Origin: Escherichia phage phiEc_1
Sequence record: LC768462.1
DNA: 64,000 nucleotides
Strand: one strand, 5' to 3'
In this document: positions 5,048 to 56,186 of the stretch, piece after piece
Layout of the letters: each line of letters starts with the position of its first letter
How positions within the stretch are numbered: the first letter of the stretch is position 1
Program-made: the position numbers and the translations under genes
The notes under the pieces: generated by a model
The model's database searches: none
The model's input: the letters and a program-made list of their open reading frames with translations, nothing else
What the model was told of the DNA's origin: nothing

Positions 5048-5782
5048 ATGAAAGCAATTGTATTATCCTCAATCCTAGCTCTGTCCGTAATGGCATCGCC
5101 TGTTTTTGCTAAAAGTGGAAACAATGGCAATGGCAATGGAGGTTGTGGTGTAGGTCAATCTACCAATGGTTGCGGTATCGGAGATTGGTTTAAAGGTGAA
5201 AAAGGTGATCAGGGAGAGAAAGGCGACACTGGCGCTAATGGCATTGATGGTAAAGATGGCATTGATGGTAAAGATGGCATTGATGGTAAAGATGGCATTG
5301 ATGGTAAAGATGGCATTGATGGAGAACAAGGCGCTCAAGGTGAAAAAGGTGATTCTGGTGCAGATGGTAAGAAAGGCGAAACTGGCCTAACTGGTGCAGC
5401 AGGTTTGAATGGCGTTGACGGATTAAATGGCAAAAACGGTAAAGATGCAGATATGTCTGCCGTTAATGCTAACGCCAAATCCATCAAAGCTCTGGAACAA
5501 TCCACCAATAAACGTTTTGCTTCTTTGCAAAAACAAGTAGACCGTAACCGTGATCATGCCTCTGCTGGTATTTCTGGCGTGGCTGCAATGGCTAACATCC
5601 CGCAAGTAAGTCAAGGATCTGCTTTCTCTGTTGGTGCTGGGGTAGGTGCTTACGATGGTGAATCTGCTCTTGCTATTGGTGTTAGTGCTCGTTTCAATGA
5701 AAACTTAGTAACTAAAGCATCAGTGGCAATGACTTCAGAGAGTGACGCTGTTCTGGGCGCTGGTGTAAGTTACGAGTGGTAA
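5048..5782 (+). CDS. trimeric-autotransporter-like protein: signal peptide, collagen-like Gly-X-Y stalk, YadA-type C-terminal anchor
   Basis: Signal peptide MKAIVLSSILALSVMASPVFA; ~30 Gly-X-Y triplets; C-terminus ...GISGVAAMANIPQV...LAIGVSARFNENLVTKASVA...GAGVSYEW matches YadA anchor pattern. Confidence 0.7.
   Translation: MKAIVLSSILALSVMASPVFAKSGNNGNGNGGCGVGQSTNGCGIGDWFKGEKGDQGEKGDTGANGIDGKDGIDGKDGIDGKDGIDGKDGIDGEQGAQGEKGDSGADGKKGETGLTGAAGLNGVDGLNGKNGKDADMSAVNANAKSIKALEQSTNKRFASLQKQVDRNRDHASAGISGVAAMANIPQVSQGSAFSVGAGVGAYDGESALAIGVSARFNENLVTKASVAMTSESDAVLGAGVSYEW
5240..5323 (+). repeat. perfect 18-bp tandem repeat (GGCATTGATGGTAAAGAT, about 4.6 copies) encoding GIDGKD
   Basis: Identical copies at 5240, 5258, 5276, 5294 plus a partial copy. 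Confidence 0.9.
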
Positions 5783-5789
5783 GATAGTG

Positions 5790-5816
5790 CCTCTCCCGAA
5801 AGGGAGGGGTGTTTCT
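5790..5816 (+). terminator. rho-independent terminator
   Basis: Stem CCTCTCCC / GGGAGGGG, GAAA loop, T-rich tail. Confidence 0.55.
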
Positions 5817-5892
5817 ATAAGCATCTTTTCGAGGGTGTTTATTGAAACAACAAAACAGGAGGTAGCAAGTTCTGATAACAACGGCACAGCTA

Positions 5893-6282
5893 ATGTTGAC
5901 ATTGACTATTTATTATGAGGCAGGGAATCAGCCAACCGCATGTAAGGCTTTAGTTGCGGATACCGTGATAAATAGAATGGCCCAACGAAAACTGACCGCT
6001 GAACAGGTGATAAGACAGAAGAACCAGTTTGAGTGGATTCCGGTACTATTAAAACAGGAGAAACCTTATAAACGTTATGTAAAGCTGATTCGTGATAAAA
6101 ATCCGATGACTAAGCAAGCCATTGGAGAAAGCGAGCGACTTGCTAAACGTGCCCTTAAGAAGAATTATGTTCCGCTGTACAGTGGGACTTACTTTCAGAG
6201 TAAGAGCGAAGGGGTGCCAAAATGGTATGCCAATCCTATGTATTGTGGTGATTTAGTGTTCGATAATAGCTCTAGGGAATAA
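5893..6282 (+). CDS. SleB/CwlJ-like cell-wall hydrolase domain protein
   Basis: TIYYEAGNQP...VADTVINRM...QFEW resembles Hydrolase_2 motifs; start uncertain (see findings). Confidence 0.5.
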   Translation: MLTLTIYYEAGNQPTACKALVADTVINRMAQRKLTAEQVIRQKNQFEWIPVLLKQEKPYKRYVKLIRDKNPMTKQAIGESERLAKRALKKNYVPLYSGTYFQSKSEGVPKWYANPMYCGDLVFDNSSRE

Positions 6283-6482
6283 TCACTAGTGCCAGATTTG
6301 ACAAACTAAATTCCTTTATAAACCAACCACTTAGTAAATTTATCGAAAAAGATGGTAGTATTCTGGGACTATGGGTAATGCTCTGTATATAGACCCTTTG
6401 AAAATTTCTTAGAAAATAAGTTTACTAAATATAACTTACTTAAATAATATTACTTTTAATCTCTGATAAAGGGTAAAATGAT

Positions 6483-6779
6483 ATGACTTTAGAAGTATAT
6501 AAATTCCTTTTTGTAAGCTGTTTAACTATCAGCGTTATAGGATTTATTGTTCTCAGAAACAAAGCAGCAAGCTGGGAAAGAATGTATAAATCCCTAGTTC
6601 GAGTGGATGAGATGTATAATGAGAAAGTTAAAGTAACACTCAACGATCTTATTATGCAAGTTGAAGACAGAAATAAGCGTCTTCAGAACCTCAACCATGA
6701 AGTATTACGACTTGCTCGTGCTAATGAAGACTTACGAGTGGCTATTGCTAAGCAGCAGGAGATTAACAGTGAAAGTTAA
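6483..6779 (+). CDS. membrane-anchored coiled-coil protein
   Basis: ORF track; N-terminal TM segment then heptad-rich region. Confidence 0.5.
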   Translation: MTLEVYKFLFVSCLTISVIGFIVLRNKAASWERMYKSLVRVDEMYNEKVKVTLNDLIMQVEDRNKRLQNLNHEVLRLARANEDLRVAIAKQQEINSES

Positions 6780-7005
6780 TATTAAATCCGATCGTACAAT
6801 GCTTCGCTTAAATAACATGAAGCCGGGCGTTCTATTTGAGCGTAAAGACTCTCTTTATATTAGAACCGACACACTATACGCAGATAACTATGTGAACTGT
6901 GTTGATGTGGTAACTGGAAAGCTCATGCCTTTTAAACGGGATGAAGTCTGCCAAGTACGTAGTGATCTTCACATAACCAACATAGAGGCTAAAGATGAAG
7001 ATTGA
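6769..7005 (+). CDS. small early protein, paralog family A
   Basis: GTG 6769 with AGGAG 8 nt upstream; shares G-x-F ... N/V-x-x-G ... P pattern with seven other ORFs. Confidence 0.5.
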   Translation: MKVNIKSDRTMLRLNNMKPGVLFERKDSLYIRTDTLYADNYVNCVDVVTGKLMPFKRDEVCQVRSDLHITNIEAKDED

Positions 7006-7246
7006 TCTTGAGATGAAAGCTAAAGAATTGTGTGTGGGTGATTTGAAACTTGGTGATGTATTCCAAGTTAAGGCAACATGTATTGATTATTACATGATCG
7101 TTCAGTTATATACACCACATGTGTCAGAGACTGATCTTCGGAATGGTTGTGTAGTGCTCAGTTTAAGCACCAATCAAGTAATGAAGCTAGATTCAAACTT
7201 ACCTGTTTCAGTTATCCATGATGCAGTAATTACCAATCGGAAGTGA
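6995..7246 (+). CDS. small early protein, paralog family A
   Basis: ORF track; family pattern. Confidence 0.5.
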   Translation: MKIDLEMKAKELCVGDLKLGDVFQVKATCIDYYMIVQLYTPHVSETDLRNGCVVLSLSTNQVMKLDSNLPVSVIHDAVITNRK

Positions 7247-7461
7247 ATATGAACATTGAAAAGAAGGTTGTTGACGAGGCTGTTCAGTTACGATCTCTTG
7301 AAACACATGATGTATTTGTGTGGGGAGGCAGTCTGTTTCAGAAATCTGCTTATGCTGTAGAGGGCGGGGTTCGTTGTTTTAATATCTTCAACAATGAGAT
7401 GCAAATCCTTCCTAACTTCGCTCATGTTAATAAACTTATCCACCTTTCTATATATCAATAA
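7243..7461 (+). CDS. small early protein, paralog family A (divergent)
   Basis: ORF track; ATGA overlap. Confidence 0.45.
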   Translation: MNMNIEKKVVDEAVQLRSLETHDVFVWGGSLFQKSAYAVEGGVRCFNIFNNEMQILPNFAHVNKLIHLSIYQ

Positions 7462-7471
7462 GGGCAATTAG

Positions 7472-7690
7472 ATGGAAATTAAAGTAGTTGATTATCCTAA
7501 ATATGCAAATGCAGAGGACGTTAAAGGTGGTGATGTTTTCTCTTATGATAAACGTTTCTGGCTGATGCTAGAAGATAAAACCCCTGATGGTTTGTGTAAG
7601 GCTGCTAACTTGAGCAGTGGTTCTGTTGAAGTCTTCGGTCTATCAACCACTGTTATGCCACGACCTGATCTGTGTTTATCCCAAAAGTAA
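7472..7690 (+). CDS. small early protein, paralog family A
   Basis: ORF track; GGDVF...FW...NLSSGSV...MPRPD. Confidence 0.55.
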   Translation: MEIKVVDYPKYANAEDVKGGDVFSYDKRFWLMLEDKTPDGLCKAANLSSGSVEVFGLSTTVMPRPDLCLSQK

Positions 7691-8048
7691 CACCGACTTA
7701 TAGCCCTTGTGTTTATCAGAGGGCTATGTGAGGGTGTTCCTCATTAACTTATTAATTCAGGCATATGCCACACCGCTAGGGAGAGCTTGCTCGAACATCC
7801 GGTGTTAGACTAAAACCTGTTAATTTTCGAAAGACTTTCCGATATGTAGGGGTACGTATTGGTTTGGGATTCAGGAGACTTCCTAGGGGTAGGGAGTCTT
7901 CACCAGTTGGAATAAGAGATAGCTCTAGAACCTGAACTCTTAGGCAGAGAAGGTCGGCAATGAGTACGCGGTCAGGGTTAGTCTACTGACTAGGGCTATC
8001 CCTTATATCAACTGGCAATAATGCCTCCACTAACAAAGAGAGATAGGT

Positions 8049-8189
8049 ATGAAAGTATCAACCAAACGTATGAACCGCCCTGAACGTATGGATGCAGTAG
8101 CTAATGGTGCTCTGAAACTGGAAGGCTTTTGGATTCATGCAATGTCAGCCATCCGTAACAAGCAAGGTAATTGGACGTATAACAGTTAA
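8049..8189 (+). CDS. small protein (46 aa)
   Basis: ATG 8049 to TAA 8187-8189, immediately followed by a terminator; below ORF-track size cutoff. Confidence 0.35.
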   Translation: MKVSTKRMNRPERMDAVANGALKLEGFWIHAMSAIRNKQGNWTYNS

Positions 8190-8197
8190 TAAATAAA

Positions 8198-8227
8198 AGG
8201 CTGCCTTCGGGTGGCCTTTGTTGTTTT
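8198..8227 (+). terminator. rho-independent terminator (UUCG loop)
   Basis: AGGCTGCC-TTCG-GGTGGCCT then TTGTTGTTTT. Confidence 0.7.
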
Positions 8228-8270
8228 AATTAAGGGACAACTCTTACTTAAACTAACAAGAGGTGCTTAT

Positions 8271-8624
8271 ATGAGACGCATGGTTAAAGATTGGGTCACT
8301 AAATCAGGTCTTCGTGCTGTGATTATGCACATGAACGACTCCCATTTTTGTGGATATGTAGAGCTACCAGACAGCTTAAAACATAAAAACTTCACCGGAT
8401 ATAACGGAAAGGAAGAGGTTTGTTATGTAAGTGTTCATGGTGGTGTCACATGGCAAGACACCCTTGAAGAGATGGGTGGTTTAGATACAATCGGATTTGA
8501 TTGTGCCCATGCAGGTGATAAGACACGGTTCAACCCTAACGGGATACCAAGAACAGAAGAGTTCTGCGTTAATGAATGCGAACAATTGGCTGAACAACTA
8601 AGAGATCTAGAATCAAATGTCTAA
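8271..8624 (+). CDS. hypothetical protein
   Basis: ORF track frame; ATG 8271 with AAGAGGTG upstream (track start at 8211 lies inside terminator). Confidence 0.55.
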   Translation: MRRMVKDWVTKSGLRAVIMHMNDSHFCGYVELPDSLKHKNFTGYNGKEEVCYVSVHGGVTWQDTLEEMGGLDTIGFDCAHAGDKTRFNPNGIPRTEEFCVNECEQLAEQLRDLESNV

Positions 8625-8793
8625 GCAAATAATCAAACATACGCAAGCTGGTTACTCTTATGTCAACTCTCCTTGCTGCGGTGCTCGTATTAGTCTGGTT
8701 AAGGAAGAGGTTCGTATTGTTCAGCGTGGCGCTACTGTTGTTCGTTCATGCTGTGTCTGTGGTAATGACATTTTTATCAAAGGTAAAGTATGA
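8617..8793 (+). CDS. small Cys-rich (zinc-ribbon-like) protein
   Basis: 58 codons; CC...CCxC pairs; overlaps neighbours. Confidence 0.4.
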   Translation: MSKQIIKHTQAGYSYVNSPCCGARISLVKEEVRIVQRGATVVRSCCVCGNDIFIKGKV

Positions 8794-9041
8794 AAAACTT
8801 CCAAGCTGCACCAATCACTAAAGTGATCGAAGTTGATGGTATAATGATGACTGTTCCTCTGAACACTCGTTACATTGCAATTGACAAGATGGGTTATGTA
8901 TGGGCTTGGAAGATCAAGCCTAGTTATAACGCATTGTTTGATGAGTTTGTTTGTACTGGAACTTACAGTCCCACATTCTTAGGTTTATTTGGAGAATTTG
9001 ATGGTAAGCATAAAATCATCACACTCCCTGCTTGTGCTTGA
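8790..9041 (+). CDS. hypothetical protein
   Basis: ORF track; ATGA overlap. Confidence 0.5.
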   Translation: MKNFQAAPITKVIEVDGIMMTVPLNTRYIAIDKMGYVWAWKIKPSYNALFDEFVCTGTYSPTFLGLFGEFDGKHKIITLPACA

Positions 9042-9048
9042 GGTTAAT

Positions 9049-9282
9049 ATGAAAGGAAAAGAGGTTAAATATTTTGGCGAAGTTGTTAAAGTGGACAGCT
9101 CTATAAGATATTTAGCAACTGATAGCAACGGCGAGGTATATGGGTTTACCCATAAGCCAGAAATTCGTGGGTATGCTTGGGCACTTCCTTATGGGACTCC
9201 GTTCGAGACGGGAGGAGCTGTTTATCTTAACGATAATGGACCTCTGTTTGCATGGAAAACATCTCTCGTTGAGGTGGTGTAA
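9049..9282 (+). CDS. hypothetical protein
   Basis: ORF track frame; ATG 9049 after GAGG. Confidence 0.5.
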   Translation: MKGKEVKYFGEVVKVDSSIRYLATDSNGEVYGFTHKPEIRGYAWALPYGTPFETGGAVYLNDNGPLFAWKTSLVEVV

Positions 9283-9284
9283 TT

Positions 9285-9449
9285 ATGTTCAAGTGGTTTA
9301 AACGTCTATTCCATCTGCATGATTGGGAGACAATAAAAGAAATTCGTTTACACATATATAATGAGATCGGTCAAATAGAAGACACAGGTACTCGTTATAT
9401 ACTTCGATGTAAAACATGTGGTCATATCACCAAACGAGATATGATCTAA
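9285..9449 (+). CDS. small protein with C-terminal CxxC
   Basis: GAGGTGG SD then ATG 9285; 54 codons. Confidence 0.4.
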   Translation: MFKWFKRLFHLHDWETIKEIRLHIYNEIGQIEDTGTRYILRCKTCGHITKRDMI

Positions 9450-9456
9450 ATCTTAT

Positions 9457-9532
9457 GCGCTCTTAGCTCAATGGATAGAGCAGTAGCCTTCTAAGCTATT
9501 GGTTACAGGTTCGAGTCCTGTAGGGCGCACCA
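9457..9532 (+). tRNA. tRNA-Arg(UCU): tRNA-Arg (anticodon UCU, reads AGA), encoded CCA
   Basis: Cloverleaf folded by hand: 7-bp acceptor stem, D stem GCTC/GAGC, anticodon loop CTTCTAA, T arm ACAGG-TTCGAGT-CCTGT, discriminator A, CCA. Confidence 0.9.
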
Positions 9533-9551
9533 AATCTAATAGGAGGTAATT

Positions 9552-9851
9552 ATGAGTTGGGGTGGTGTAATATCCTTAATCTGTATCTTCCTTGTCTGCA
9601 TAGCCCTTACAGGCTGCGTACAGAGCCGTCCTGATGGATGGTGTGCAGTAGCAGTGGAAGGTGTTTGTGTTTCTCGCTGGCATAAGGGTGAGAAGATTCC
9701 TTCTGGTGAAATTGATATGCGATGGAACGGAGCAACCTGTTCTAATGCTAACCCTTCTATCAACGAAGAGAAGTCTACACCGGATAATGTTGTTATTGAT
9801 ACAGCATTGTGGTGTGGTGGCTCTACGATTACAACCGGTAAGGAGTGGTGA
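9552..9851 (+). CDS. lipoprotein (Cys-rich)
   Basis: AGGAGG SD; signal peptide with lipobox LTGC (LICIFLVCIALTGC). Confidence 0.65.
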   Translation: MSWGGVISLICIFLVCIALTGCVQSRPDGWCAVAVEGVCVSRWHKGEKIPSGEIDMRWNGATCSNANPSINEEKSTPDNVVIDTALWCGGSTITTGKEW

Positions 9852-9852
9852 T

Positions 9853-10050
9853 ATGAATTACACATCTACAAAGGTGTTAATTGATTCGATTAATAACTCC
9901 TCAGAAACTGTACAGGAGCGTTTAATACAAGATGTTAGCAATGACATTAAGTTCTTTGTTAAGAGCCGCCTGTTAGGTTCTAAGGCTTATTACAGAGCTA
10001 AAGCAGAGCTTACAAAGAGGATGTTTCTTTTACATGGTTTGGTATATTAA
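9853..10050 (+). CDS. hypothetical protein
   Basis: ATG 9853 with AAGGAG upstream; same frame as track ORF 9661..10050 but non-overlapping start. Confidence 0.5.
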   Translation: MNYTSTKVLIDSINNSSETVQERLIQDVSNDIKFFVKSRLLGSKAYYRAKAELTKRMFLLHGLVY

Positions 10051-10059
10051 GGAACTTAT

Positions 10060-10281
10060 ATGAAACTAGACTCTAAGCAGTCACTTAAAACTGTTGAATT
10101 GTCCACGCTGCCAAACGGAAGTATTTTTGGTCATGATAAACACTTCTGGATTAAAACAGACATCATAGACGATGGATATATCACCTGTGTCAATCTTTGG
10201 AACGGCTCAGTGGATGGCTATCGCCCTAGTGCAAAAGTAGTCCCTCAGCCTGATGCAAAGGCTACAGGTTTAGTTTACTAA
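10060..10281 (+). CDS. small early protein, paralog family A
   Basis: ORF track; PNGSIF...FW...NLWNGSV...VPQPD. Confidence 0.55.
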   Translation: MKLDSKQSLKTVELSTLPNGSIFGHDKHFWIKTDIIDDGYITCVNLWNGSVDGYRPSAKVVPQPDAKATGLVY

Positions 10282-10290
10282 GGAGCCTGT

Positions 10291-10464
10291 ATGAGTTGTT
10301 TTGGTGGCGGTGAAGTAGATGACGATGATGACATGGAATCCAACGGTACATGTCCTGATTGTGGATGTGAGACGTTTGATGGGGTGTCTGTTTATCCTGC
10401 CTGTAGTTACTCACCAGTGATCTGTAAAACATGTGGTGATCAGCCGTGTGACCAATCTTGTTAA
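10291..10464 (+). CDS. small acidic Cys-rich (zinc-ribbon-like) protein
   Basis: AAGGAG SD; CPDCGC...CKTCGD. Confidence 0.4.
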   Translation: MSCFGGGEVDDDDDMESNGTCPDCGCETFDGVSVYPACSYSPVICKTCGDQPCDQSC

Positions 10465-10473
10465 GAGAATCTT

Positions 10474-10605
10474 ATGACTGAAGAATTTTTAGAGTGGTTT
10501 GGGAACACCTTCAAAGATTATCTATTCTCTCCAGAAGACTTTGAAGAACTGAAAACCTACACTTGGTTGGCTTGGAGAGATAGCCGACGAAAGTTGAACA
10601 AGTAA
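10474..10605 (+). CDS. small protein (43 aa)
   Basis: Short ORF between neighbours; weak support. Confidence 0.25.
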   Translation: MTEEFLEWFGNTFKDYLFSPEDFEELKTYTWLAWRDSRRKLNK

Positions 10606-10616
10606 GAGACGATTAA

Positions 10617-10874
10617 ATGGGTTTACTTGATATTTTTATCTCAGTTTACTTTATTGGAGTATTCCTTTCTGTCTTAGTGATGAAACTGCTATACAAGAAA
10701 GGTCTACTAAAAGGGGTCATTACAACAGGGTCTACCAGCTCTGAACCTGATGAGATGATGGTTGTTCTCTTAATTGTGTTGTGGCCTATCTCAATACTGT
10801 CAGGAGTTTTTTATCCAATAGGTTGGCTTCTGTTTAAAGCATATGATGCAGTTATGCATTTTATCTTTAAGTAA
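10617..10874 (+). CDS. membrane protein (two TM helices)
   Basis: ORF track; two hydrophobic segments. Confidence 0.55.
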   Translation: MGLLDIFISVYFIGVFLSVLVMKLLYKKGLLKGVITTGSTSSEPDEMMVVLLIVLWPISILSGVFYPIGWLLFKAYDAVMHFIFK

Positions 10875-11164
10875 TATCGTGAAGGATTCTTACGAGAGTC
10901 CTTTGAGATAGGACTTCAGATCTCCTATCAAACTAACATTCATGTAACTAGCCCATAAGGGCGTTACCCTTTAATAACCCAGCCCACTAAGGGGGCGGGA
11001 GTTTAGTGCTGGATTAGCATAACGCTTATTCCTACAAAGGCAACCGATTGTTAGATCTTACATGCAATATTAACTAATAGGATAAGGGAGGATTCGTCCC
11101 CTCCCCCTATTTTATTGAATCTTTATCTAAGCAAGTCTTATATAAACGTTTAATTGGAGGATGT

Positions 11165-11476
11165 ATGAAAGCACGAAGAACTATATGGACTCCGATGCAG
11201 ATTGAAAATCTTCGGAGACTGATCAAAGAGTACTCGGTTCAAGAAGTTGCTCAGATTATGAATGTAACGGAGAATGCTGTTAACACAGCTTGCACTAAAT
11301 TCGGAATATCAAGAGCTTCAATCCGAGTCAAGTGGTCTAAAGAAGAAGATCAGTTCCTTATCCGTAATGCCGGGTTTATGTCTATTCAGAGAATGGCTGA
11401 CATGCTTGGTAGAAGTTATGCTGCTGTACAGAACAGGGCATGTATGCACCTTAATATTAGCCTCAAACTTAAATAG
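11165..11476 (+). CDS. DNA-binding protein with two tandem HTH-like repeats
   Basis: Internal repeat W-[ST]-x-E-x-[LI]...S...A...G-[RI]-S. Confidence 0.5.
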   Translation: MKARRTIWTPMQIENLRRLIKEYSVQEVAQIMNVTENAVNTACTKFGISRASIRVKWSKEEDQFLIRNAGFMSIQRMADMLGRSYAAVQNRACMHLNISLKLK

Positions 11477-11484
11477 GAATCAAT

Positions 11485-11733
11485 ATGAAGATTACTCACA
11501 AGAAAGAAGAAGTGTCCACGGTTGATATCAACTCTCTTCCTAGTGGAGCAGTATTTAAATTCCCTGAGAGTTCTACTCTCTATGTCAAAGGGTCTGTGTC
11601 TGAAAGTCCTAATGTAACCGTTAACTCCGATCGAGCAATCACTCTTCGTCTATCTGATGGTAACGTAACAGCCCCTTCTATCTGGTGCCGAGTTGTCCCT
11701 GTATCGGCAGAACTTTTGGTGGATAATACATAA
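11485..11733 (+). CDS. small early protein, paralog family A
   Basis: ORF track; family pattern. Confidence 0.55.
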   Translation: MKITHKKEEVSTVDINSLPSGAVFKFPESSTLYVKGSVSESPNVTVNSDRAITLRLSDGNVTAPSIWCRVVPVSAELLVDNT

Positions 11734-11978
11734 TGAAAATCATCCCAAAGAAAAAGGATAATACGGTTCGATTGGAAACAATCATTCCCGGAAACCCCTT
11801 CGTAGTTCAGCACGGAAGTGCCTCTCCTCAGTATTATATGAGGGTTGAAAATGCTTCTGGTAACATCCGTATAGCCAGTGGCTGGGTTCCTGTAGTAAAT
11901 CTATCCACAGGTGCACTGTCTGTTAAAGGTCTTGATGATCAGGTAGAAATGATTCGTATGTCTGTGGTTCAGGAGTGA
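11733..11978 (+). CDS. small early protein, paralog family A
   Basis: ORF track; family pattern. Confidence 0.55.
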   Translation: MKIIPKKKDNTVRLETIIPGNPFVVQHGSASPQYYMRVENASGNIRIASGWVPVVNLSTGALSVKGLDDQVEMIRMSVVQE

Positions 11979-12226
11979 GAATGAGCACGATACATATTAA
12001 GGTTCACAACAAAGAAAAAAAGAAACTCTTTGTTAAAGATCTGTCAACCGCTGACATCTTTACTTTAAAAGATGATGACAGTCAGGTCATTTATTTGATG
12101 ATGCCTCTATCTGGTGGATATCGCAGAGCAGTTAATTTAGGTACAGGCGAACCTCGTCCTGTTTCTGACACTCTTGAAGTTGGCGAGAAGTTTGCCAAAG
12201 CAGAGATCATCTTAACTCCGATGTAA
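11975..12226 (+). CDS. small early protein, paralog family A
   Basis: ORF track; family pattern. Confidence 0.55.
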   Translation: MRMSTIHIKVHNKEKKKLFVKDLSTADIFTLKDDDSQVIYLMMPLSGGYRRAVNLGTGEPRPVSDTLEVGEKFAKAEIILTPM

Positions 12227-12459
12227 GGGTAAGTAAGTGAAAACAAAAGCATATTCTTATGATGATATGATCAACCAGAAAGGCTTCGGTCAACGCCAGC
12301 CTGACGGTTCAATTATCTGGTTTGTAAACGGACAGAAAAAGGTAGCTAAATAAGCCCTCTTCTCTCCTCCTTTTAGTACTATGACGCCTCTCTGTGGGCG
12401 GCCCAATTTGCGTAGGGAATTCCCTCTACGCAGCCATGACTTTTTAAGGAATTTCCCCT

Positions 12460-12693
12460 ATGTCTAAAGTAAGTGCAATTGATGCAATCCGTCAACCGTT
12501 CCAGTTCCAATCCAAATCAACCCAAACCTTCAGCGAACCTAAGCAAATTCGCTTGGGTGGCACAGAGAAAACTGTGTTCGATCTGGCTAAAAACAAGAGC
12601 GTTACCGTAGTTGATGGTGGCACTCTGGTTAACGTTTCTCATCGCATCCGCACTGGCAAAACTGCCAAAGATCGTGCTAAGAAAGGCGAGTAA
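12460..12693 (+). CDS. hypothetical protein
   Basis: ORF track. Confidence 0.5.
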   Translation: MSKVSAIDAIRQPFQFQSKSTQTFSEPKQIRLGGTEKTVFDLAKNKSVTVVDGGTLVNVSHRIRTGKTAKDRAKKGE

Positions 12694-12908
12694 TGATAAC
12701 ACTTGTGTCGATCGTTTACAGAATACACTACCGTCTAGACAAAGGTAAGACCTATAAGTGCAAGAGTAAGACAGGCAATAGATGCTCTGTAGAAAACAAC
12801 TCTGGTCAATGGGTGGATGTACCTTGTTGTTGGTTCAGGAAAGACTTGACTAACAAAGAAATTGACGAAATCCTTAGTGATGATTTTGTAAAATCAAGTG
12901 ATTTTTAG
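12693..12908 (+). CDS. hypothetical Cys-containing protein
   Basis: ORF track; TAATG overlap. Confidence 0.5.
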   Translation: MITLVSIVYRIHYRLDKGKTYKCKSKTGNRCSVENNSGQWVDVPCCWFRKDLTNKEIDEILSDDFVKSSDF

Positions 12909-13099
12909 TTGTAGTAACGCCTATAGCCTTCTTCGGAGGGCTATGTGAGTTATTCTGACTCAACTAACCTAATCTTAATATATTTCCCGTATGGGGCCGA
13001 TGCTAGGGAGAGGAACATTCCTCGAACATCCGTCGGATAGATATTTTAAGAGCAGGTTATCCACAGATATTGGGTAATATCTTTTTGTATTTAAAGCTT

Positions 13100-13126
13100 G
13101 ACTCTTTTCGGAGAGTCCTTTTTTAA
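13100..13126 (+). terminator. rho-independent terminator (UUCG loop)
   Basis: GACTCTT-TTCG-GAGAGTC then CTTTTTT. Confidence 0.6.
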
Positions 13127-13143
13127 ATTCAACGAGAGGAAAT

Positions 13144-13296
13144 ATGTCTAAATTAGATTTAAAACTGCTAGCAGCAGCGGTAGTGATTTGTGCACTAGCA
13201 CTGGTAACGCAGAGAACATCTGGATTTATTCAGTGTTTCTTTTCTGGGCAATCCACTTATCAGTGGGTTATTGACGAGTGTAAACAACAGGAGTAA
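13144..13296 (+). CDS. small membrane protein (50 aa)
   Basis: GAGAGGAAAT then ATG; hydrophobic core. Confidence 0.4.
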   Translation: MSKLDLKLLAAAVVICALALVTQRTSGFIQCFFSGQSTYQWVIDECKQQE

Positions 13297-13298
13297 GT

Positions 13299-13661
13299 AT
13301 GAATACACGTCCCATCAAGGGCAACGTTAATATTGAAACTCTGAACAAGGTTGCATCAAACCTCGGTGGTATGTCCAACGAAGAGCTTGAGCAAGAACTT
13401 GCTTGGATTGCAAATGGTATCAAGGTTGCTAAAGGTAAGATTGCTCGTGAGCAAAGTAACATGAAAGCTCATAAGTATCTAATCCATCGTGCAAACGTGT
13501 TACCGGAGCGGGTTGTACATCTTGCCCGTAAAAACTACGCAGAAGCAAAGAAAGCTCTGGAAGAAGCTGAGTTCCAGAAGCATCAATTTATGAACAACTA
13601 TCGAAACTTCCGAGATATTCTTTATATTCGTAAGTCGATTGAGTTGATTAAAAACCAATAG
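13299..13661 (+). CDS. hypothetical protein
   Basis: ORF track. Confidence 0.55.
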   Translation: MNTRPIKGNVNIETLNKVASNLGGMSNEELEQELAWIANGIKVAKGKIAREQSNMKAHKYLIHRANVLPERVVHLARKNYAEAKKALEEAEFQKHQFMNNYRNFRDILYIRKSIELIKNQ

Positions 13662-13672
13662 AGGTTGGTATA

Positions 13673-14872
13673 ATGTTTCCAGTAACATTAGAAGATACTG
13701 AAGGTAATGTTTTAACAGTCAACCCTCCTTGTTATGGGTTCCTTCAGCTTCGCAACTATAACGGTGGCGTTGATGAAGACGATGAAGAGTATGATGACTA
13801 CTTCGACCCTAACATGTATGAGGCAACTCATGGATGGAATATGCACGTTCGAGTGTGGCATGAAGAAGCTAACGTTCGTAGTGCTGATGGGGAAGAGTTC
13901 CTGTTAAGCCGAGAGATGGATATGTGTAAAATCAAGCATATCTGGAACTCTGGAACTCATATGAAGATGTTAGGTTTTAGACGTTGGCGTGATGAAAAGC
14001 ATGTAGCTGAAGCTTTAAGTTGGTGTTCGTATGAAGATGAAGACACGCCCCCTAAGAACAACATCGAACGTTGGAACGACAAAAACCCTGAGCATCGAAC
14101 CACACCTCGTGCTGTACTGGAAGCTATGGAAGCATTTGTGGACAAAGATCGTCCCTCCTGTTTACGCTGGCACGATAAAGGTTTTATGGGGGTAGCAACT
14201 GAGAATATCCCTGCTGATCGTTGTCTGTTCTATTTGATGTTAGACCGAATCTTCTATTGTGAAGATGAAGAGAGTCAAGTTGAAACCTTCCTCCATAAAT
14301 GGTTGGTTGAAGGCTGGACAATCCTTCAGGCTTATGTTTACTCACGAATGGTTAGCACTTACACTAACCTCTTAGGGGAAACGAAAGCAACTCTGGTTGG
14401 TAATGATTGGGATGCTTGTATCTTCCCAGCGTCGCTGTTTACAGTTGGCATGGCTAATAAATACGCTGAAGCATTTCAAGTGCCTTGGCGTCAACAGTCA
14501 TATAGAGATGGATGCGGTCATTTCCGTGATGAAGACTTTAAGTGGATTCATTACGAGAATGATGAAACAGCAGAATTACGAGTTAACAACTCAATGTTCT
14601 TGCCAGTGATGCACCCCGATCTAGTAAAAGACGGGTCAGAGACACTTAAAGGTGATAATCTTTTGGTTAACTTTACCCGTCGCGTGTCTAAAAATGAGAA
14701 AACAGCTAACAGGTTAATCTACGGCATTCGTGCCGAGGCTAAAGACCTGTTCAACATCTACAACATCATTCAGCGATTTAGTAGTGGAACTCTGGACCAA
14801 AGTTCGGAGTATTCAGTGATTCCGTCCTCTGAGTGGGATGGTATTATGAGCGGATTATTTTTAGGAAAATAA
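13673..14872 (+). CDS. acidic hypothetical protein (first gene of enzyme cluster)
   Basis: ORF track; GAGG SD. Confidence 0.6.
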   Translation: MFPVTLEDTEGNVLTVNPPCYGFLQLRNYNGGVDEDDEEYDDYFDPNMYEATHGWNMHVRVWHEEANVRSADGEEFLLSREMDMCKIKHIWNSGTHMKMLGFRRWRDEKHVAEALSWCSYEDEDTPPKNNIERWNDKNPEHRTTPRAVLEAMEAFVDKDRPSCLRWHDKGFMGVATENIPADRCLFYLMLDRIFYCEDEESQVETFLHKWLVEGWTILQAYVYSRMVSTYTNLLGETKATLVGNDWDACIFPASLFTVGMANKYAEAFQVPWRQQSYRDGCGHFRDEDFKWIHYENDETAELRVNNSMFLPVMHPDLVKDGSETLKGDNLLVNFTRRVSKNEKTANRLIYGIRAEAKDLFNIYNIIQRFSSGTLDQSSEYSVIPSSEWDGIMSGLFLGK

Positions 14873-32807: not shown

Positions 32808-32816
32808 TAATGTATA
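32808..32816 (+). promoter_or_regulatory. candidate phage-sigma promoter element (TAATGTATA)
   Basis: Exact 9-mer 37 bp upstream of ATG 32853. Confidence 0.45.
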
Positions 32817-54181: not shown

Positions 54182-55216
54182 TTATTGTATACTCCTGAAT
54201 ATCTTTCTAGCATCTAATATTGGAATACTTAACCCGAGGGCACCACCCCCTCCTAAATCATATTGACTACTCCAAGAGTAAATCATCCTTCCGAAACCTG
54301 TACCGAAAGAAGAGCCATTCATCATGTGAGATCTTGTGTGTTGAAAATACCAACCACTAGCCTTGCCCCTTATTGCTCCTGCTCCGTAAGATAGTGGTAT
54401 CATTGGATAGGCCAGAGATGTGTTACCGCCACTCATAGGCATAAATCCCTCAACACTAAAAGGGGTTCTATATGTAGAAAATACACACTGAGACCCATTT
54501 GGAGAGAAGATATTTAAACCCCCATTGTGGGTTGGTACTCCAGAACCATCACAGAAGACGGCAATTCTAACACCACCAATGTATCCTGTTTGGTTTGTGT
54601 TACCATTATCATGAGATCTGTTCTGGTACACATAAACAACCCTATTGGATGGATTGTATAGCAGCCCTGCTCCACCGTTACTCCAATTCGCGTAGACAGT
54701 TGCTCGGCTCATATCAAAACCACCAATATCTGGTATTTGAAGAGAACCATTTATGTCACCCTCCCAAGCCCAAATACATTGACCAACAACCCCAGAATCG
54801 GATATTGAGAAATAGTCAGCAGAGTTGGAGAATGTGATTCCATAATTCCTGTTAGCTCTAGGCCATATTTGATACACATTAAAAGCCATATCAAATACCC
54901 AACCGTTTACATTATAGTCCATAGTAACTCTGAAGGTTGAGTTATTAATAACAGATATATCCGTTATCCAATACACATCAGACGTTACGTTAGGAGGTAT
55001 GTATCTCTCCCAAACAACAGACCCTGTTGGAACTACAACTATCTGACCACTACCATCCCAACCACTTATAGGCAAGTCACAGGTATTTCCACTAAAAGAG
55101 AAATTCCCACTGACTCTATTTCTGAGTTGAGGGAATGTGCTACCACTATCGATGTAAATATCAGCAGGTGCCGCTGGACCCGGACCAACCGGGCGTGTCC
55201 ATATTCCATATGCCAT
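54182..55216 (-). CDS. tail fibre / receptor-binding protein (beta-rich)
   Basis: ORF track; Gly/Ser/Asn-rich beta-like composition; adjacent to fibre-like gene. Confidence 0.45.
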   Translation of the reverse strand: MAYGIWTRPVGPGPAAPADIYIDSGSTFPQLRNRVSGNFSFSGNTCDLPISGWDGSGQIVVVPTGSVVWERYIPPNVTSDVYWITDISVINNSTFRVTMDYNVNGWVFDMAFNVYQIWPRANRNYGITFSNSADYFSISDSGVVGQCIWAWEGDINGSLQIPDIGGFDMSRATVYANWSNGGAGLLYNPSNRVVYVYQNRSHDNGNTNQTGYIGGVRIAVFCDGSGVPTHNGGLNIFSPNGSQCVFSTYRTPFSVEGFMPMSGGNTSLAYPMIPLSYGAGAIRGKASGWYFQHTRSHMMNGSSFGTGFGRMIYSWSSQYDLGGGGALGLSIPILDARKIFRSIQ

Positions 55217-55217
55217 G

Positions 55218-56186
55218 TTACCAACTCCCTATTCTTATGCGAAGAGTTCCACTCCCATCATAAAAATCTATTCTATTACCATTCATCCACAACTGAGAAC
55301 CACCTGTACCACCCATAACAAAATCACCACCAACAGTAAGTCTCCAGTTAGAACCCCACATAGAACCAGCAGTGATTTTATCCGCTGATAAGTTCTGAAT
55401 CTGAGCATTGGAGATAGATACGTTATCAATCTGTGCCCATTGGATCCTAGCGTTGGCAATCTGAGCAGTTGTGATGTTGACGTTCTTTATGTCAGCGAAT
55501 TCCATCCTAGCTCGCCCACCCTCAAATACGAAGGGGGTATTCCCAGAGCTGCCATCACCAACAATAAATTTGTTAGCTGTTACTTGGAATTGACTGTTTG
55601 TTCCGTTGTTAGTTAACTTGACCCCAGCATATCTTCCGTTGACTGTAGAGTTAACACCCCACGTAGCTTCATACTCAGAGAGTTTCATATACTGAGAAAG
55701 GCTTCCGTTGATATTTTGCAGTTCTGTCTGAACAAGAGCAATCTCTTGACCTTGATCGTTAACAATACCTTCTACTGTCTGAATTTTAGTTGTGTTACCT
55801 TCGATGCTGGTCTTAAAACCAGATACAGTGCTTTCTAGCTTCACAGGGGGTTGAACAGAATTATCCCAAATGTCCTCAGTGGACAGGTTCCCCATCTGGG
55901 TTTGGATATCTGCAATAGCTGTTTCTATCTCTGTAGTAATTCTATTCTCAAGCTCATCAAATTGTAGATTCATTGCATTAAGAGCTTTAATACGAACATC
56001 AATCTCTTCGTGAATTTCATCTATAGCTTGGAACATTTGGTTAGTAGCTGTGCTAACTTTTTGTAATTCATCATACACGGCTACGTTATATGTTTCTGTG
56101 TCCTGTACATTATTGAGAAACCCAACGTTGTACGGGAGTGTGGTGTTGTTGCGACCAGTATTCTTACGAAAACCACCTGCACCCAT
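55218..56186 (-). CDS. tail fibre protein
   Basis: ATG at 56186 with GGAGG SD (track start 56252 overlaps upstream gene); coiled-coil N-terminus, fibre-like C-terminal repeats. Confidence 0.5.
   Translation of the reverse strand: MGAGGFRKNTGRNNTTLPYNVGFLNNVQDTETYNVAVYDELQKVSTATNQMFQAIDEIHEEIDVRIKALNAMNLQFDELENRITTEIETAIADIQTQMGNLSTEDIWDNSVQPPVKLESTVSGFKTSIEGNTTKIQTVEGIVNDQGQEIALVQTELQNINGSLSQYMKLSEYEATWGVNSTVNGRYAGVKLTNNGTNSQFQVTANKFIVGDGSSGNTPFVFEGGRARMEFADIKNVNITTAQIANARIQWAQIDNVSISNAQIQNLSADKITAGSMWGSNWRLTVGGDFVMGGTGGSQLWMNGNRIDFYDGSGTLRIRIGSW

What the first reader, a model, noticed from the sequence alone, without database searches (positions are those of the whole stretch)
9552..9851. 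Early Cys-rich lipoprotein, candidate receptor-blocking or superinfection-exclusion factor
The ORF has a strong SD and a signal peptide with the lipobox LTGC, followed by a small mature domain with several Cys. Small early lipoproteins in lytic phages, such as the T5 Llp class, inactivate the phage's own receptor to prevent superinfection.
Basis: partly seen in the sequence, partly recalled or inferred. Interest (0 to 1): 0.4.

Follow-up and report, generated by a model that had tools for sequence, protein, structure and literature searches.

The report
Phage lipoprotein that likely blocks LptD
This small early gene of a phiEco32-like (Kuravirus) E. coli phage encodes a relative of Rtp45, a phage lipoprotein known to clamp the LPS-export channel LptDE from inside so that no further phage can dock, and the same genome also carries the matching LptD-binding tail protein, which points to a receptor not yet reported for this phage group.

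Summary
ORF 9552-9851 (+) encodes 99 aa, has an AGGAGG Shine-Dalgarno site, a hydrophobic signal peptide, the lipobox L-T-G-C22, and four more Cys. It is under strong purifying selection (dN/dS 0.025).

The window is a Kuravirus (phiEco32/SU10-like podovirus). The ORF is the ortholog of phiEco32 gene 106 and lies in the early gene block.

The protein belongs to Pfam PF24052 (E 7e-35). It is homologous in sequence and predicted fold to Rtp45 (PDB 9RPS). Rtp45 is the superinfection-exclusion lipoprotein of siphophage Rtp. It binds LptDE from the periplasm and displaces an LptD surface loop so the phage receptor-binding protein cannot dock. The Rtp45 disulfide Cys pair and hairpin motifs are conserved here.

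The same window encodes a homolog of the cognate LptD-binding protein (DUF6453; ORF 54182-55216, minus strand; Foldseek 9RPT E 2e-12). This gene sits directly after the tail-needle gene, and the needle carries the same tip domain as siphophage J proteins.

Best reading: an early LptDE-blocking exclusion factor. It implies that LptD is the unreported terminal receptor of Kuraviruses. Nothing has been tested experimentally. Interest is moderate.

The parts
9457..9532 (+). tRNA-Arg(TCT) immediately upstream of the lipoprotein gene. The synteny is conserved in phiEco32, Bas90 and SU7.
   Evidence: ARAGORN; annotations.
9541..9546 (+). Shine-Dalgarno sequence AGGAGG, 5 nt upstream of the ATG.
   Evidence: Read directly from the sequence.
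9552..9851 (+). Coding sequence of the 99-aa prolipoprotein, a member of PF24052 (the Rtp45 family). It is the ortholog of phiEco32 phi32_106 and is identical to Bas90_0100.
9552..9614 (+). Signal peptide, residues 1-21. The n-region is uncharged and the core is hydrophobic.
   Evidence: Rule-based check; AF2 predicts a helix over residues 3-22.
9606..9617 (+). Lipobox L-T-G-C22. Cys22 is the predicted acylated first residue of the mature protein. The +2 residue is Val, which predicts outer-membrane sorting.
   Evidence: C22 is invariant in 39 family sequences. The +2 rule is established knowledge.
9627..9731 (+). Conserved core, residues 26-60 (RPDGWCAVAVEGVCVSRWHKGEKIPSGEIDMRWNG). It contains the Cys31-Cys39 pair, equivalent to the Rtp45 Cys30-Cys38 disulfide. 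It also contains the beta-hairpin that in Rtp45 inserts up the LptD lumen.
   Evidence: Alignments (invariant G29 W30 C31 C39 G52 D55 R57 G60). Rtp45 structure description. AF2 strands 31-35, 38-44, 47-50 and 52-64.
9738..9815 (+). Variable insert bounded by Cys63 and Cys88, absent from Rtp45 and the Oekolampad exclusion protein. Total protein length varies among the Kuravirus-type variants retrieved (93, 98, 99 or 108 aa), but both Cys are kept. A second disulfide closing a loop is inferred.
   Evidence: Alignment; low-confidence coil over residues 65-86 in AF2.
9819..9848 (+). Conserved C-terminal strand G-S-x-x-T-x-G-K-E-W, shared with Rtp45 and the Oekolampad exclusion protein.
   Evidence: Alignments (G90 and W99 invariant).
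54182..55216 (-). 344-aa homolog of the LptD-binding receptor-binding proteins Rtp44 and RBP-Oekolampad (Pfam DUF6453). It corresponds to SU10 CDS19, and to Bas90_0015 and SU7 gp018, both annotated 'membrane protein'. It is the inferred partner whose docking the lipoprotein would block.
   Evidence: tblastn E 4e-15 and 2e-10. phmmer against 9rpt_C E 1.7e-9. Pfam E 1.2e-24 and PHROG 1265 E 3.7e-106. AF2 pLDDT 84 and Foldseek 9rpt_C E 2.3e-12, TM 0.80.
55218..56186 (-). Tail needle, 322 aa from the ATG at 56186, equivalent to SU10 gp18. Its C-terminal part is a Phage_Tail_Tip domain (PF09327). The same domain ends the J-like central fibre of LptD-targeting siphophages, and it is the inferred docking platform for the DUF6453 protein.
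   Evidence: PDB 7z4b_EA E 1e-209; Pfam; BLASTP against the Oekolampad J C-terminus E 3e-8.

Best explanation
The ORF encodes a small outer-membrane-anchored periplasmic lipoprotein of the Rtp45 family. Transcription is presumably early, by host RNA polymerase. The precursor would be exported, acylated at Cys22 and sent to the inner leaflet of the outer membrane. Cys31-Cys39, and probably Cys63-Cys88, would be oxidised in the periplasm. By analogy with Rtp45, the conserved core pairs as a beta-strand with the base of LptD strand 6. Its hairpin pushes up the lumen of closed LptDE, displaces extracellular loop 4, and locks a conformation the phage's DUF6453 receptor-binding protein cannot enter. 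An infected cell, and later its envelope debris, would then no longer accept DNA ejection from phages of the same kind or from other LptD-targeting phages. What is shown: the gene is real, it belongs to the family, the Rtp45 structural motifs are conserved, and the cognate receptor-binding protein homolog and tip domain are present in the same genome. What is inferred: export and lipidation, LptDE binding, exclusion, early timing, and LptD being this phage's terminal receptor.
For: Family and homology: Pfam PF24052 E 7.4e-35 and PHROG 4281 E 1.6e-33. These are the same families as Rtp45 and the Oekolampad exclusion protein. phmmer against PDB 9rps_D gives E 8.9e-14, and the family profile gives 5.6e-40 with no other real hit. 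The AF2 model's only meaningful PDB match by Foldseek is 9rps_D (probability 1.00, TM 0.68 normalised to the target). Motifs: the lipidated Cys, the Rtp45 disulfide pair, the hairpin residues and the C-terminal KEW strand are invariant or nearly so across 39 sequences. [quoted passage not shown] Cognate partner in the same genome: ORF 54182-55216 is a DUF6453 homolog of Rtp44 and RBP-Oekolampad. It lies directly downstream of a needle that carries the Phage_Tail_Tip domain found at the end of siphophage J proteins. Co-occurrence: both genes appear in the same siphophage records, mostly adjacent. Both are in phiEco32, Bas90, Bas91, Bas92 and SU7. Roughly 100 Gordonclarkvirinae records hold each gene, against 98 that hold the nozzle protein. 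Selection: dN/dS is 0.025. Timing: the gene sits in the early block and has no phage-sigma promoter nearby. Plausibility of a missed receptor: Kuraviruses need O-antigen and their terminal receptor is not established. lptD is essential, so knockout screens cannot find it.
Against: No experiment exists for this protein or any Kuravirus ortholog. The signal peptide has no Lys or Arg in its n-region, so a standard lipoprotein rule is not fully met. The gene is about 44 kb from the receptor-binding protein gene, whereas in most siphophages the two are adjacent. Lipoprotein and receptor-binding protein alleles do not co-vary: Bas90 has an identical lipoprotein but a receptor-binding protein only 62% identical. 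The receptor-binding protein homolog (SU10 CDS19) was not among the 34 proteins found by LC-MS in SU10, although its neighbours CDS16-18 and CDS20-24 were. It is also not named in the SU10 cryo-EM study. The AF2 model of the lipoprotein has only moderate confidence (pLDDT 70). The effect of the 26-residue insert on LptDE binding is unknown.
Confidence: 0.68

Rival explanations
1. Cross-exclusion only. The lipoprotein blocks LptD to keep competing LptD-targeting siphophages (Rtp-like, Dhillonvirus and others) out of the infected cell. The Kuravirus itself does not use LptD.
For: The gene is unlinked to the receptor-binding protein homolog, and their alleles assort independently. The DUF6453 protein was not detected in SU10 virions. 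LptD-targeting siphophages are common in the same sewage and gut habitats.
Against: The genome keeps a full-length DUF6453 homolog with a confident fold match to the LptD-bound protein. It sits in the tail gene block right after a needle with a J-type tip domain, and this arrangement is conserved across genera. That is hard to explain if LptD is not used.
Confidence: 0.13
2. Host take-over rather than exclusion. By binding LptDE the lipoprotein stops or alters LPS and O-antigen export. This would remodel or weaken the outer membrane for the phage's benefit, for example by easing lysis or limiting new primary receptor.
For: Rtp45 occupies the LptD lumen of the closed translocon next to LptE and LptM. 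Kuraviruses depend on O-antigen. The Kuravirus-specific Cys-bounded insert could add a function.
Against: The only documented role in the family is exclusion. Cells tolerated co-overexpression of Rtp45 with LptDE. Within a short lytic cycle, blocking export would not remove LPS already on the surface (inference).
Confidence: 0.08
3. Lysis component: an outer-membrane spanin-like lipoprotein.
For: It is a small lipoprotein with Cys residues. No spanin genes are annotated next to the holin and endolysin genes in Bas90 or SU7.
Against: It lies about 50 kb from the lysis genes, in the early block. It has no partner inner-membrane spanin gene overlapping or adjacent and no C-terminal transmembrane segment. 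It is not Pro-rich. It is homologous to Rtp45, which is a structurally defined LptD binder.
Confidence: 0.02
4. A decaying or non-exported remnant with no current function, because of the uncharged signal-peptide n-region.
For: No Lys or Arg in the first seven residues, unlike all other family members examined.
Against: Strong purifying selection (dN/dS 0.025). The 'MSWGGVISL' leader is conserved across genera, the gene is retained in roughly all Gordonclarkvirinae, and the Shine-Dalgarno site is strong.
Confidence: 0.04

Closest known systems
Rtp45, the superinfection-exclusion lipoprotein of siphophage Rtp (PDB 9RPS chain D; Pfam PF24052)
   Same: Same Pfam and PHROG family. Lipobox signal peptide. 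Conserved RPDGWC...GVC disulfide hairpin, the W/G/P/GE/D/R hairpin residues and the C-terminal G-S...K-E-W strand. The predicted fold matches. The +2 residue is compatible with outer-membrane sorting. A DUF6453 receptor-binding protein is encoded in the same genome.
   Different: About 44% identity. A 26-residue variable insert closed by two extra Cys. An uncharged signal-peptide n-region. The gene lies in the early block of a podovirus, about 44 kb from the receptor-binding protein gene, instead of directly upstream of it. No functional or structural data exist.
Oekolampad exclusion lipoprotein (bas18_0026) and the many Dhillonvirus, Rogunavirus and Webervirus homologs
   Same: Same family and same association with DUF6453 receptor-binding proteins.
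   Different: 30-45% identity. The siphophage proteins are 73-81 aa and lack the Cys-bounded insert. In Klebsiella Weberviruses the two genes are also about 10 kb apart, so adjacency is not universal.
T5 Llp (FhuA-blocking early lipoprotein)
   Same: Same concept. A small lipoprotein made early, anchored in the outer membrane on the periplasmic side and disulfide-stabilised. It makes the phage's own receptor unusable and protects progeny from debris.
   Different: No detectable sequence, profile or fold similarity. The target is a TonB-dependent transporter, and the mechanism is long-range allostery rather than physical loop displacement.
Cor (phi80, T1, N15) exclusion lipoproteins
   Same: Small phage lipoproteins that block an outer-membrane receptor (FhuA).
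   Different: No PHROG or Pfam match for the window protein. Only the Oekolampad exclusion protein's signal peptide weakly touches the Cor PHROG.
phiEco32 gene 106, annotated 'putative phage lipoprotein'
   Same: Ortholog, with the same position after tRNA-Arg in the early block.
   Different: The 93-aa form has a shorter insert. The annotation gives no function, receptor or link to LptD.

Membership tests
PF24052 / Rtp45-type exclusion lipoproteins | Match to the family profile above the curated threshold | tested here: met
   Pfam 119.2 bits against a cut-off of 27, E 7.4e-35, full-length 1-80/80. PHROG 4281 E 1.6e-33.
PF24052 / Rtp45-type exclusion lipoproteins | N-terminal lipoprotein signal peptide with a lipobox Cys | tested here: met
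   L-T-G-C22 and a hydrophobic core. The Cys is invariant in 39 sequences.
PF24052 / Rtp45-type exclusion lipoproteins | Conserved Cys pair forming the Rtp45 Cys30-Cys38 disulfide | tested here: met
   C31 and C39 align to Rtp45 C30 and C38 and are invariant. The disulfide itself is inferred.
PF24052 / Rtp45-type exclusion lipoproteins | Beta-hairpin fold of Rtp45 | tested here: met
   The AF2 model (pLDDT 70) matches 9rps_D in Foldseek with probability 1.00 and TM 0.68 normalised to the target. It is the sole hit below E 1.
PF24052 / Rtp45-type exclusion lipoproteins | Gene adjacent to a DUF6453 (LptD-type) receptor-binding protein gene | tested here: not met
   The DUF6453 gene is present but about 44 kb away, at 54182-55216 on the minus strand. 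Adjacency is seen in Rtp, Oekolampad and others (against 57). It is also broken in a Klebsiella Webervirus.
PF24052 / Rtp45-type exclusion lipoproteins | Binds LptDE and excludes LptD-dependent phage | not testable with these tools
   This needs expression, plating and adsorption assays, and pull-down or cryo-EM.
T5 Llp family | Sequence or fold similarity to Llp | tested here: not met
   No Llp chain appears among PDB hits at E up to 10 with the single sequence or the profile, nor in Foldseek. That Llp chains are present in the PDB copy is assumed from the published FhuA-Llp structure (PMC9586334).
T5 Llp family | Early expression | tested here: inconclusive
   Positional only: the gene is inside the block classed as early in phiEco32 and SU10, with no phage-sigma promoter consensus nearby. 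The sigma-70 pattern scan was uninformative.
Bacterial-type lipoprotein signal (PROSITE PS51257 rule) | Lipobox pattern with the Cys at position 15-35 | tested here: met
   The regex match ends at C22.
Bacterial-type lipoprotein signal (PROSITE PS51257 rule) | At least one Lys or Arg in the first seven residues | tested here: not met
   MSWGGVI has none. The same holds for P0001-P0009, while the other family members have 1-2.
Outer-membrane spanin (Rz1-like) | Gene embedded in or next to an inner-membrane spanin gene in the lysis cassette, with a Pro-rich mature part | tested here: not met
   The flanking ORFs are small soluble early proteins. The holin and endolysin genes lie near 60 kb in the window.
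DUF6453 LptD-binding receptor-binding proteins (for the partner ORF 54182-55216) | Profile match and fold match to RBP-Oekolampad bound to LptDE | tested here: met
   Pfam PF20051 87.6 bits against a cut-off of 25. PHROG 1265 E 3.7e-106. Foldseek 9rpt_C E 2.3e-12, TM 0.80.
DUF6453 LptD-binding receptor-binding proteins (for the partner ORF 54182-55216) | Present in the virion at the tail tip | not testable with these tools
   Published SU10 proteomics did not list CDS19, and the cryo-EM paper does not mention it. The question is open.

The most novel reading that the evidence does not exclude
[quoted passage not shown] After the long fibres bind O-antigen, a DUF6453 protein (SU10 gp19, so far unassigned) mounted on the Phage_Tail_Tip domain of the tail needle would dock into open LptD. 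The early lipoprotein at 9552-9851 would be the cognate exclusion factor. On this reading, the tip domain, receptor-binding protein and exclusion lipoprotein of small siphophages have been transplanted as a set onto a short-tailed phage. The exclusion gene has moved into the early operon.
Probability: 0.5. Interest if true: 0.68.

Novelty: new member of a known kind. Interest (0 to 1): 0.5.

Why it matters
The protein itself is an ordinary member of a family whose mechanism was solved in 2025. Its value lies in what its presence implies.

- **An open receptor question.** Kuraviruses are frequently isolated, resist restriction-modification systems and are being considered for therapy. Their terminal receptor is nevertheless not established. 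The BASEL authors only infer a cell-surface target for the short fibres.
- **A concrete, cheap prediction.** An LptD-blocking lipoprotein, an LptD-type receptor-binding protein and a J-type tip domain in every genome checked point to LptDE as that receptor.
- **Why it could have been missed.** lptD is essential, so knockout screens could not have found it.
- **Consequences if true.** LptD targeting would extend from small siphophages to podoviruses. A function would be assigned to SU10 gp19. It would also bear on cocktail design, because cross-exclusion with LptD-dependent siphophages would be expected.

Tried and rejected
- **T5 Llp or Cor membership.** Rejected. There is no sequence, profile or fold similarity.
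- **N4-like identity of the phage.** This was my first guess from the hit list. The taxonomy of the hits (Kuravirus, Gordonclarkvirinae) rules it out.
- **Sigma-70 promoter and terminator scan of 5500-14000.** Promoter-like sites were fewer than in shuffles, so no promoter could be assigned. Two terminator-like hairpins (8196-8219 and 11086-11105) bracket the unit, but nothing more can be said.
- **phiEco32 phage-sigma consensus.** Overall counts are at chance. Exact copies occur only in the middle and late regions.
- **NCBIfam and PADLOC.** No hits for either protein.
- **Exhaustive representative search.** Only 15 clusters were found. One, P0105, is a 476-aa repeat protein whose 'GTLDLRWNS' repeats mimic the GEIDMRWNG motif and is not a homolog.
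- **Context of the distant homolog P0094.** The contigs are too short to be useful.
- **Residue-level Rtp45-LptD contacts.** The contact table in the supplement is an image and could not be read.
- **The original Rtp paper.** It is not held in the library.
- **Co-variation of lipoprotein and receptor-binding protein alleles.** None was found.
- **Literature link.** A search for any link between Kuravirus, Gordonclarkvirinae or phiEco32 and LptD found none.

Full report
**1. The observation**

- The ORF at 9552-9851 (+) is real and matches the description. It encodes 99 aa. AGGAGG lies 5 nt upstream of the ATG, and an in-frame stop at 9540 excludes a longer N-terminus.
- Residues 6-20 are strongly hydrophobic. 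L19-T20-G21-C22 fits the lipoprotein lipobox pattern.
- The 78-aa mature part has four more Cys: C31, C39, C63 and C88.
- The gene is not a chance ORF. It matches Pfam PF24052 'Phage lipoprotein family' at E 7.4e-35, full-length, and PHROG 4281.
- Against the ortholog in phage FS2B it differs by 19 synonymous and only 2 non-synonymous changes, giving dN/dS 0.025.
- The 109-aa antisense ORF 9536-9865 is therefore a shadow of the real gene.
- One oddity: the n-region MSWGG has no Lys or Arg. This is true of every Kuravirus ortholog, whereas every other family representative has one or two.

**2. Where the window comes from**

- The region is 99% identical to Escherichia phages SkaterBoy_Bas90 and DE5, and matches about 100 phiEco32-like phages. 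The taxonomy of the hits is Gordonclarkvirinae, genus Kuravirus.
- The best overall match for both proteins discussed here is phage Ec3-ASingh, at 100%.
- The ORF equals Bas90_0100 ('hypothetical') and is the ortholog of phiEco32 gene 106 ('putative phage lipoprotein'). In both phages, and in SU7 of the genus Suseptimavirus, it follows a tRNA-Arg.
- It lies in the block that is the early, host-sigma-70 class in phiEco32 and SU10.
- Exact copies of the phiEco32 phage-sigma promoter element occur only at 32808, 39387, 39459 and 49639, not near this gene.
- 'Early' is thus a positional inference.

**3. What the protein is**

- A phmmer search of the PDB gave one real hit: 9rps chain D, 'Phage lipoprotein', E 8.9e-14. 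A profile of 39 family members raised this to 5.6e-40, with nothing else significant.
- 9RPS is the cryo-EM structure of Shigella LptDE-LptM with Rtp45, the superinfection-exclusion lipoprotein of siphophage Rtp (Dunbar et al., PNAS 2025, PMC12685063).
- In that structure Rtp45 sits at the periplasmic outer-membrane interface between LptE and LptM. Residues 30-35 pair as a beta-strand with LptD residues 318-323.
- Rtp45 has a Cys30-Cys38 disulfide. It sends a long hairpin up the LptD lumen and displaces extracellular loop 4 by up to 20 A, so the receptor-binding protein cannot dock.
- In the window protein, the lipidated Cys, the disulfide pair (C31, C39), the hairpin residues (W43, G46, P50, G52, E53, D55, R57, G60) and the C-terminal G-S...K-E-W strand are all conserved. 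Most are invariant across the family.
- An AlphaFold2 model (pLDDT 70) is all-beta after the signal helix. Its only meaningful PDB match is 9rps_D (Foldseek probability 1.00, TM 0.68 on the target).
- T5 Llp never appears in sequence, profile or fold searches. The protein works like Llp in concept but is not a member of that family.
- The Kuravirus proteins differ from Rtp45 by a variable insert (residues about 61-89). Total length is 93, 98, 99 or 108 aa among the Kuravirus-type variants retrieved. The insert is bounded by two extra, always conserved Cys, which suggests a second disulfide closing a loop. AF2 gives low confidence for this loop.

**4.

- In siphophages the exclusion gene directly precedes the gene for the LptD-binding receptor-binding protein: rtp45 then rtp44, and bas18_0026 then bas18_0025. 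I therefore searched the window with Rtp44 and RBP-Oekolampad.
- Both hit one ORF, 54182-55216 on the minus strand (344 aa), at E 4e-15 and 2e-10 over nearly the full length.
- This ORF matches PDB 9rpt_C, the protein bound to open LptDE, at E 1.7e-9.
- It belongs to the same Pfam (DUF6453, E 1.2e-24) and the same PHROG (1265, E 3.7e-106) as Rtp44 and RBP-Oekolampad.
- It gives a confident AF2 model (pLDDT 84), whose sole significant PDB match is 9rpt_C (E 2.3e-12, TM 0.80).
- Public genomes annotate it 'membrane protein' or 'moron'. That label looks like one transferred from the PHROG.
- It lies directly downstream of the tail-needle gene, which is 99% identical to SU10 gp18 (PDB 7z4b), and upstream of the transglycosylase ejection protein.
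- The needle carries the Pfam Phage_Tail_Tip domain (E 9e-27). This is the same domain that ends the J-like central fibres of Rtp and Oekolampad (E 2e-35 and 8e-39; pairwise BLASTP E 3e-8). In siphophages, separately encoded receptor-binding proteins are thought to attach there.
- So three parts are shared between LptD-targeting siphophages and this podovirus: the tip domain, the DUF6453 protein and the PF24052 lipoprotein.

**5. Distribution**

- Records seen in both tblastn listings carry both genes, usually adjacent. Examples are TheodorHerzl, WFI, PH1062, T145P1 and phiJLA23. In a Klebsiella Webervirus the two are about 10 kb apart.
- In Gordonclarkvirinae both genes are present in phiEco32, Bas90, Bas91, Bas92 and SU7 in conserved positions.
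- Rank-sampled lists imply roughly 100 records for each gene, against 98 records with a full-length nozzle protein. This is an estimate, not a census.
- The alleles do not co-vary. The window and Bas90 have identical lipoproteins but receptor-binding proteins only 62% identical. Bas90's receptor-binding protein is 89% identical to that of SU7, whose lipoprotein is only 57% identical.
- This is expected if the lipoprotein acts on the receptor rather than on the receptor-binding protein. It also gives no positive evidence of coupling.

**6. Most likely mechanism**

- The protein is made early and exported. It is acylated at Cys22 and sorted to the outer membrane (Val at +2; the +2 rule is established knowledge). 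It is oxidised in the periplasm.
- It then binds closed LptDE as Rtp45 does and locks a surface conformation that the DUF6453 protein cannot enter.
- This would exclude further phages of the same kind and other LptD-targeting phages. As argued for T5 Llp, it would also spare progeny from adsorbing to debris.
- Shown: gene reality, family membership, conservation of the Rtp45 structural motifs, and presence of the partner genes.
- Inferred: every biochemical step, and the claim that LptD is this phage's terminal receptor.

**7. Evidence against, and open points**

- The uncharged n-region may reduce or change export.
- The SU10 homolog of the receptor-binding protein (CDS19) is absent from the 34 proteins detected by LC-MS, although CDS16-18 and CDS20-24 were found. 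It is not mentioned in the SU10 cryo-EM paper or its supplement.
- The protein has only 8 tryptic peptides of convenient size. It would be present in at most a few copies, and the needle was reconstructed at 15 A with threefold symmetry. Non-detection is therefore weak evidence, but it is real.
- The lptD mutants of the first BASEL study were tested only on phages that do not need O-antigen, so Kuraviruses were never challenged.

**8. Known or new**

- The family and its mechanism are known (2025). The phiEco32 ortholog has been labelled 'putative phage lipoprotein' since the genome was deposited.
- In the searchable literature I found no paper linking Kuravirus, Gordonclarkvirinae or phiEco32 to LptD, and none assigning a role to this lipoprotein or to the DUF6453 gene.
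- The finding itself is therefore a new member of a known kind, in an unusual setting: a podovirus, an early operon, no linkage to the receptor-binding protein gene, and an extra disulfide loop.
- The more novel reading is that LptDE is the terminal receptor of this whole subfamily and that gp19 on the needle is the terminal receptor-binding protein. I give it about even odds. It is cheaply testable.

**9. Verdict**

Confidence in the exclusion mechanism is about 0.68. Interest is 0.5.

Noticed in passing
window 54182-55216 (-): A 344-aa ORF annotated 'membrane protein' or 'moron' in related genomes is a DUF6453 homolog of the LptD-binding receptor-binding proteins of phages Rtp and Oekolampad. 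It corresponds to SU10 CDS19, which has no assigned role.
   Followed up: yes
window 55218-56186 (-): The tail needle (SU10 gp18 equivalent) carries a Phage_Tail_Tip (PF09327) domain. The same domain ends the J-like central fibres of siphophages. The listed ORF starts 22 codons upstream at a TTG, but the solved SU10 protein starts at the ATG at 56186.
   Followed up: yes
window 54182-55216 compared with L005:18137-19168 and L010:6348-7379: The receptor-binding protein homolog is mosaic across the subfamily. The window's allele is only 62-63% identical to those of Bas90 and SU7. Those two are 89% identical to each other despite belonging to different genera. The adjacent needle is 99% identical between the window and Bas90. 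This suggests horizontal exchange of the allele. The N-terminal 30 residues and residues 120-150 are the best conserved.
   Followed up: partly
window 9552-9572: All Kuravirus-type lipoproteins start MSWGGVISL, with no basic residue in the signal-peptide n-region. Every other family member examined has one or two. The consequence for export is unknown.
   Followed up: partly
window 7472-7690 and 10060-10281 (+): Two small early ORFs (72 and 73 aa) are paralogs, 40% identical over 47 aa (E 2e-9). Their function is unknown.
   Followed up: partly
window 10291-10464 (+): A 57-aa ORF is very rich in Cys (CPDCGC...C...CKTCGDQPCDQSC) and acidic at its N-terminus. It looks like a small metal-binding early protein.
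   Followed up: no
window 10617-10874 (+): An 85-aa ORF has two strongly hydrophobic segments and may be a small membrane protein. The corresponding stretch in Bas90 (L001, about 5740-5997) has no annotated gene.
   Followed up: no
window 8196-8219 and 11086-11105 (+): Two strong terminator-like hairpins followed by T-runs bracket the group of small genes that includes the lipoprotein gene.
   Followed up: no
L007:6001-6285 (Logan contig SRR28250349_233, 50 kb): A 94-aa family member (P0093, 47% identical, also with an extra Cys pair) sits among KilA-N, TerB, TerC, PRPP-synthetase and NAMPT-like genes of what looks like a different, larger phage. No DUF6453 gene lies within 6 kb. This is another case where the lipoprotein gene is not next to a DUF6453 gene.
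   Followed up: partly
protein P0105 (476 aa, metagenomic): This protein matched the query in ten stretches because it has tandem 'GTLDLRWNS'-type repeats resembling the GEIDMRWNG motif. It has no lipobox and is probably not homologous.
   Followed up: partly
window 32808 (+), 39387 (-), 39459 (+), 49639 (-): These are exact copies of the phiEco32 phage-sigma promoter element TAATGTATA. They lie in the middle and late regions, including a divergent pair around 39.4 kb.
   Followed up: no
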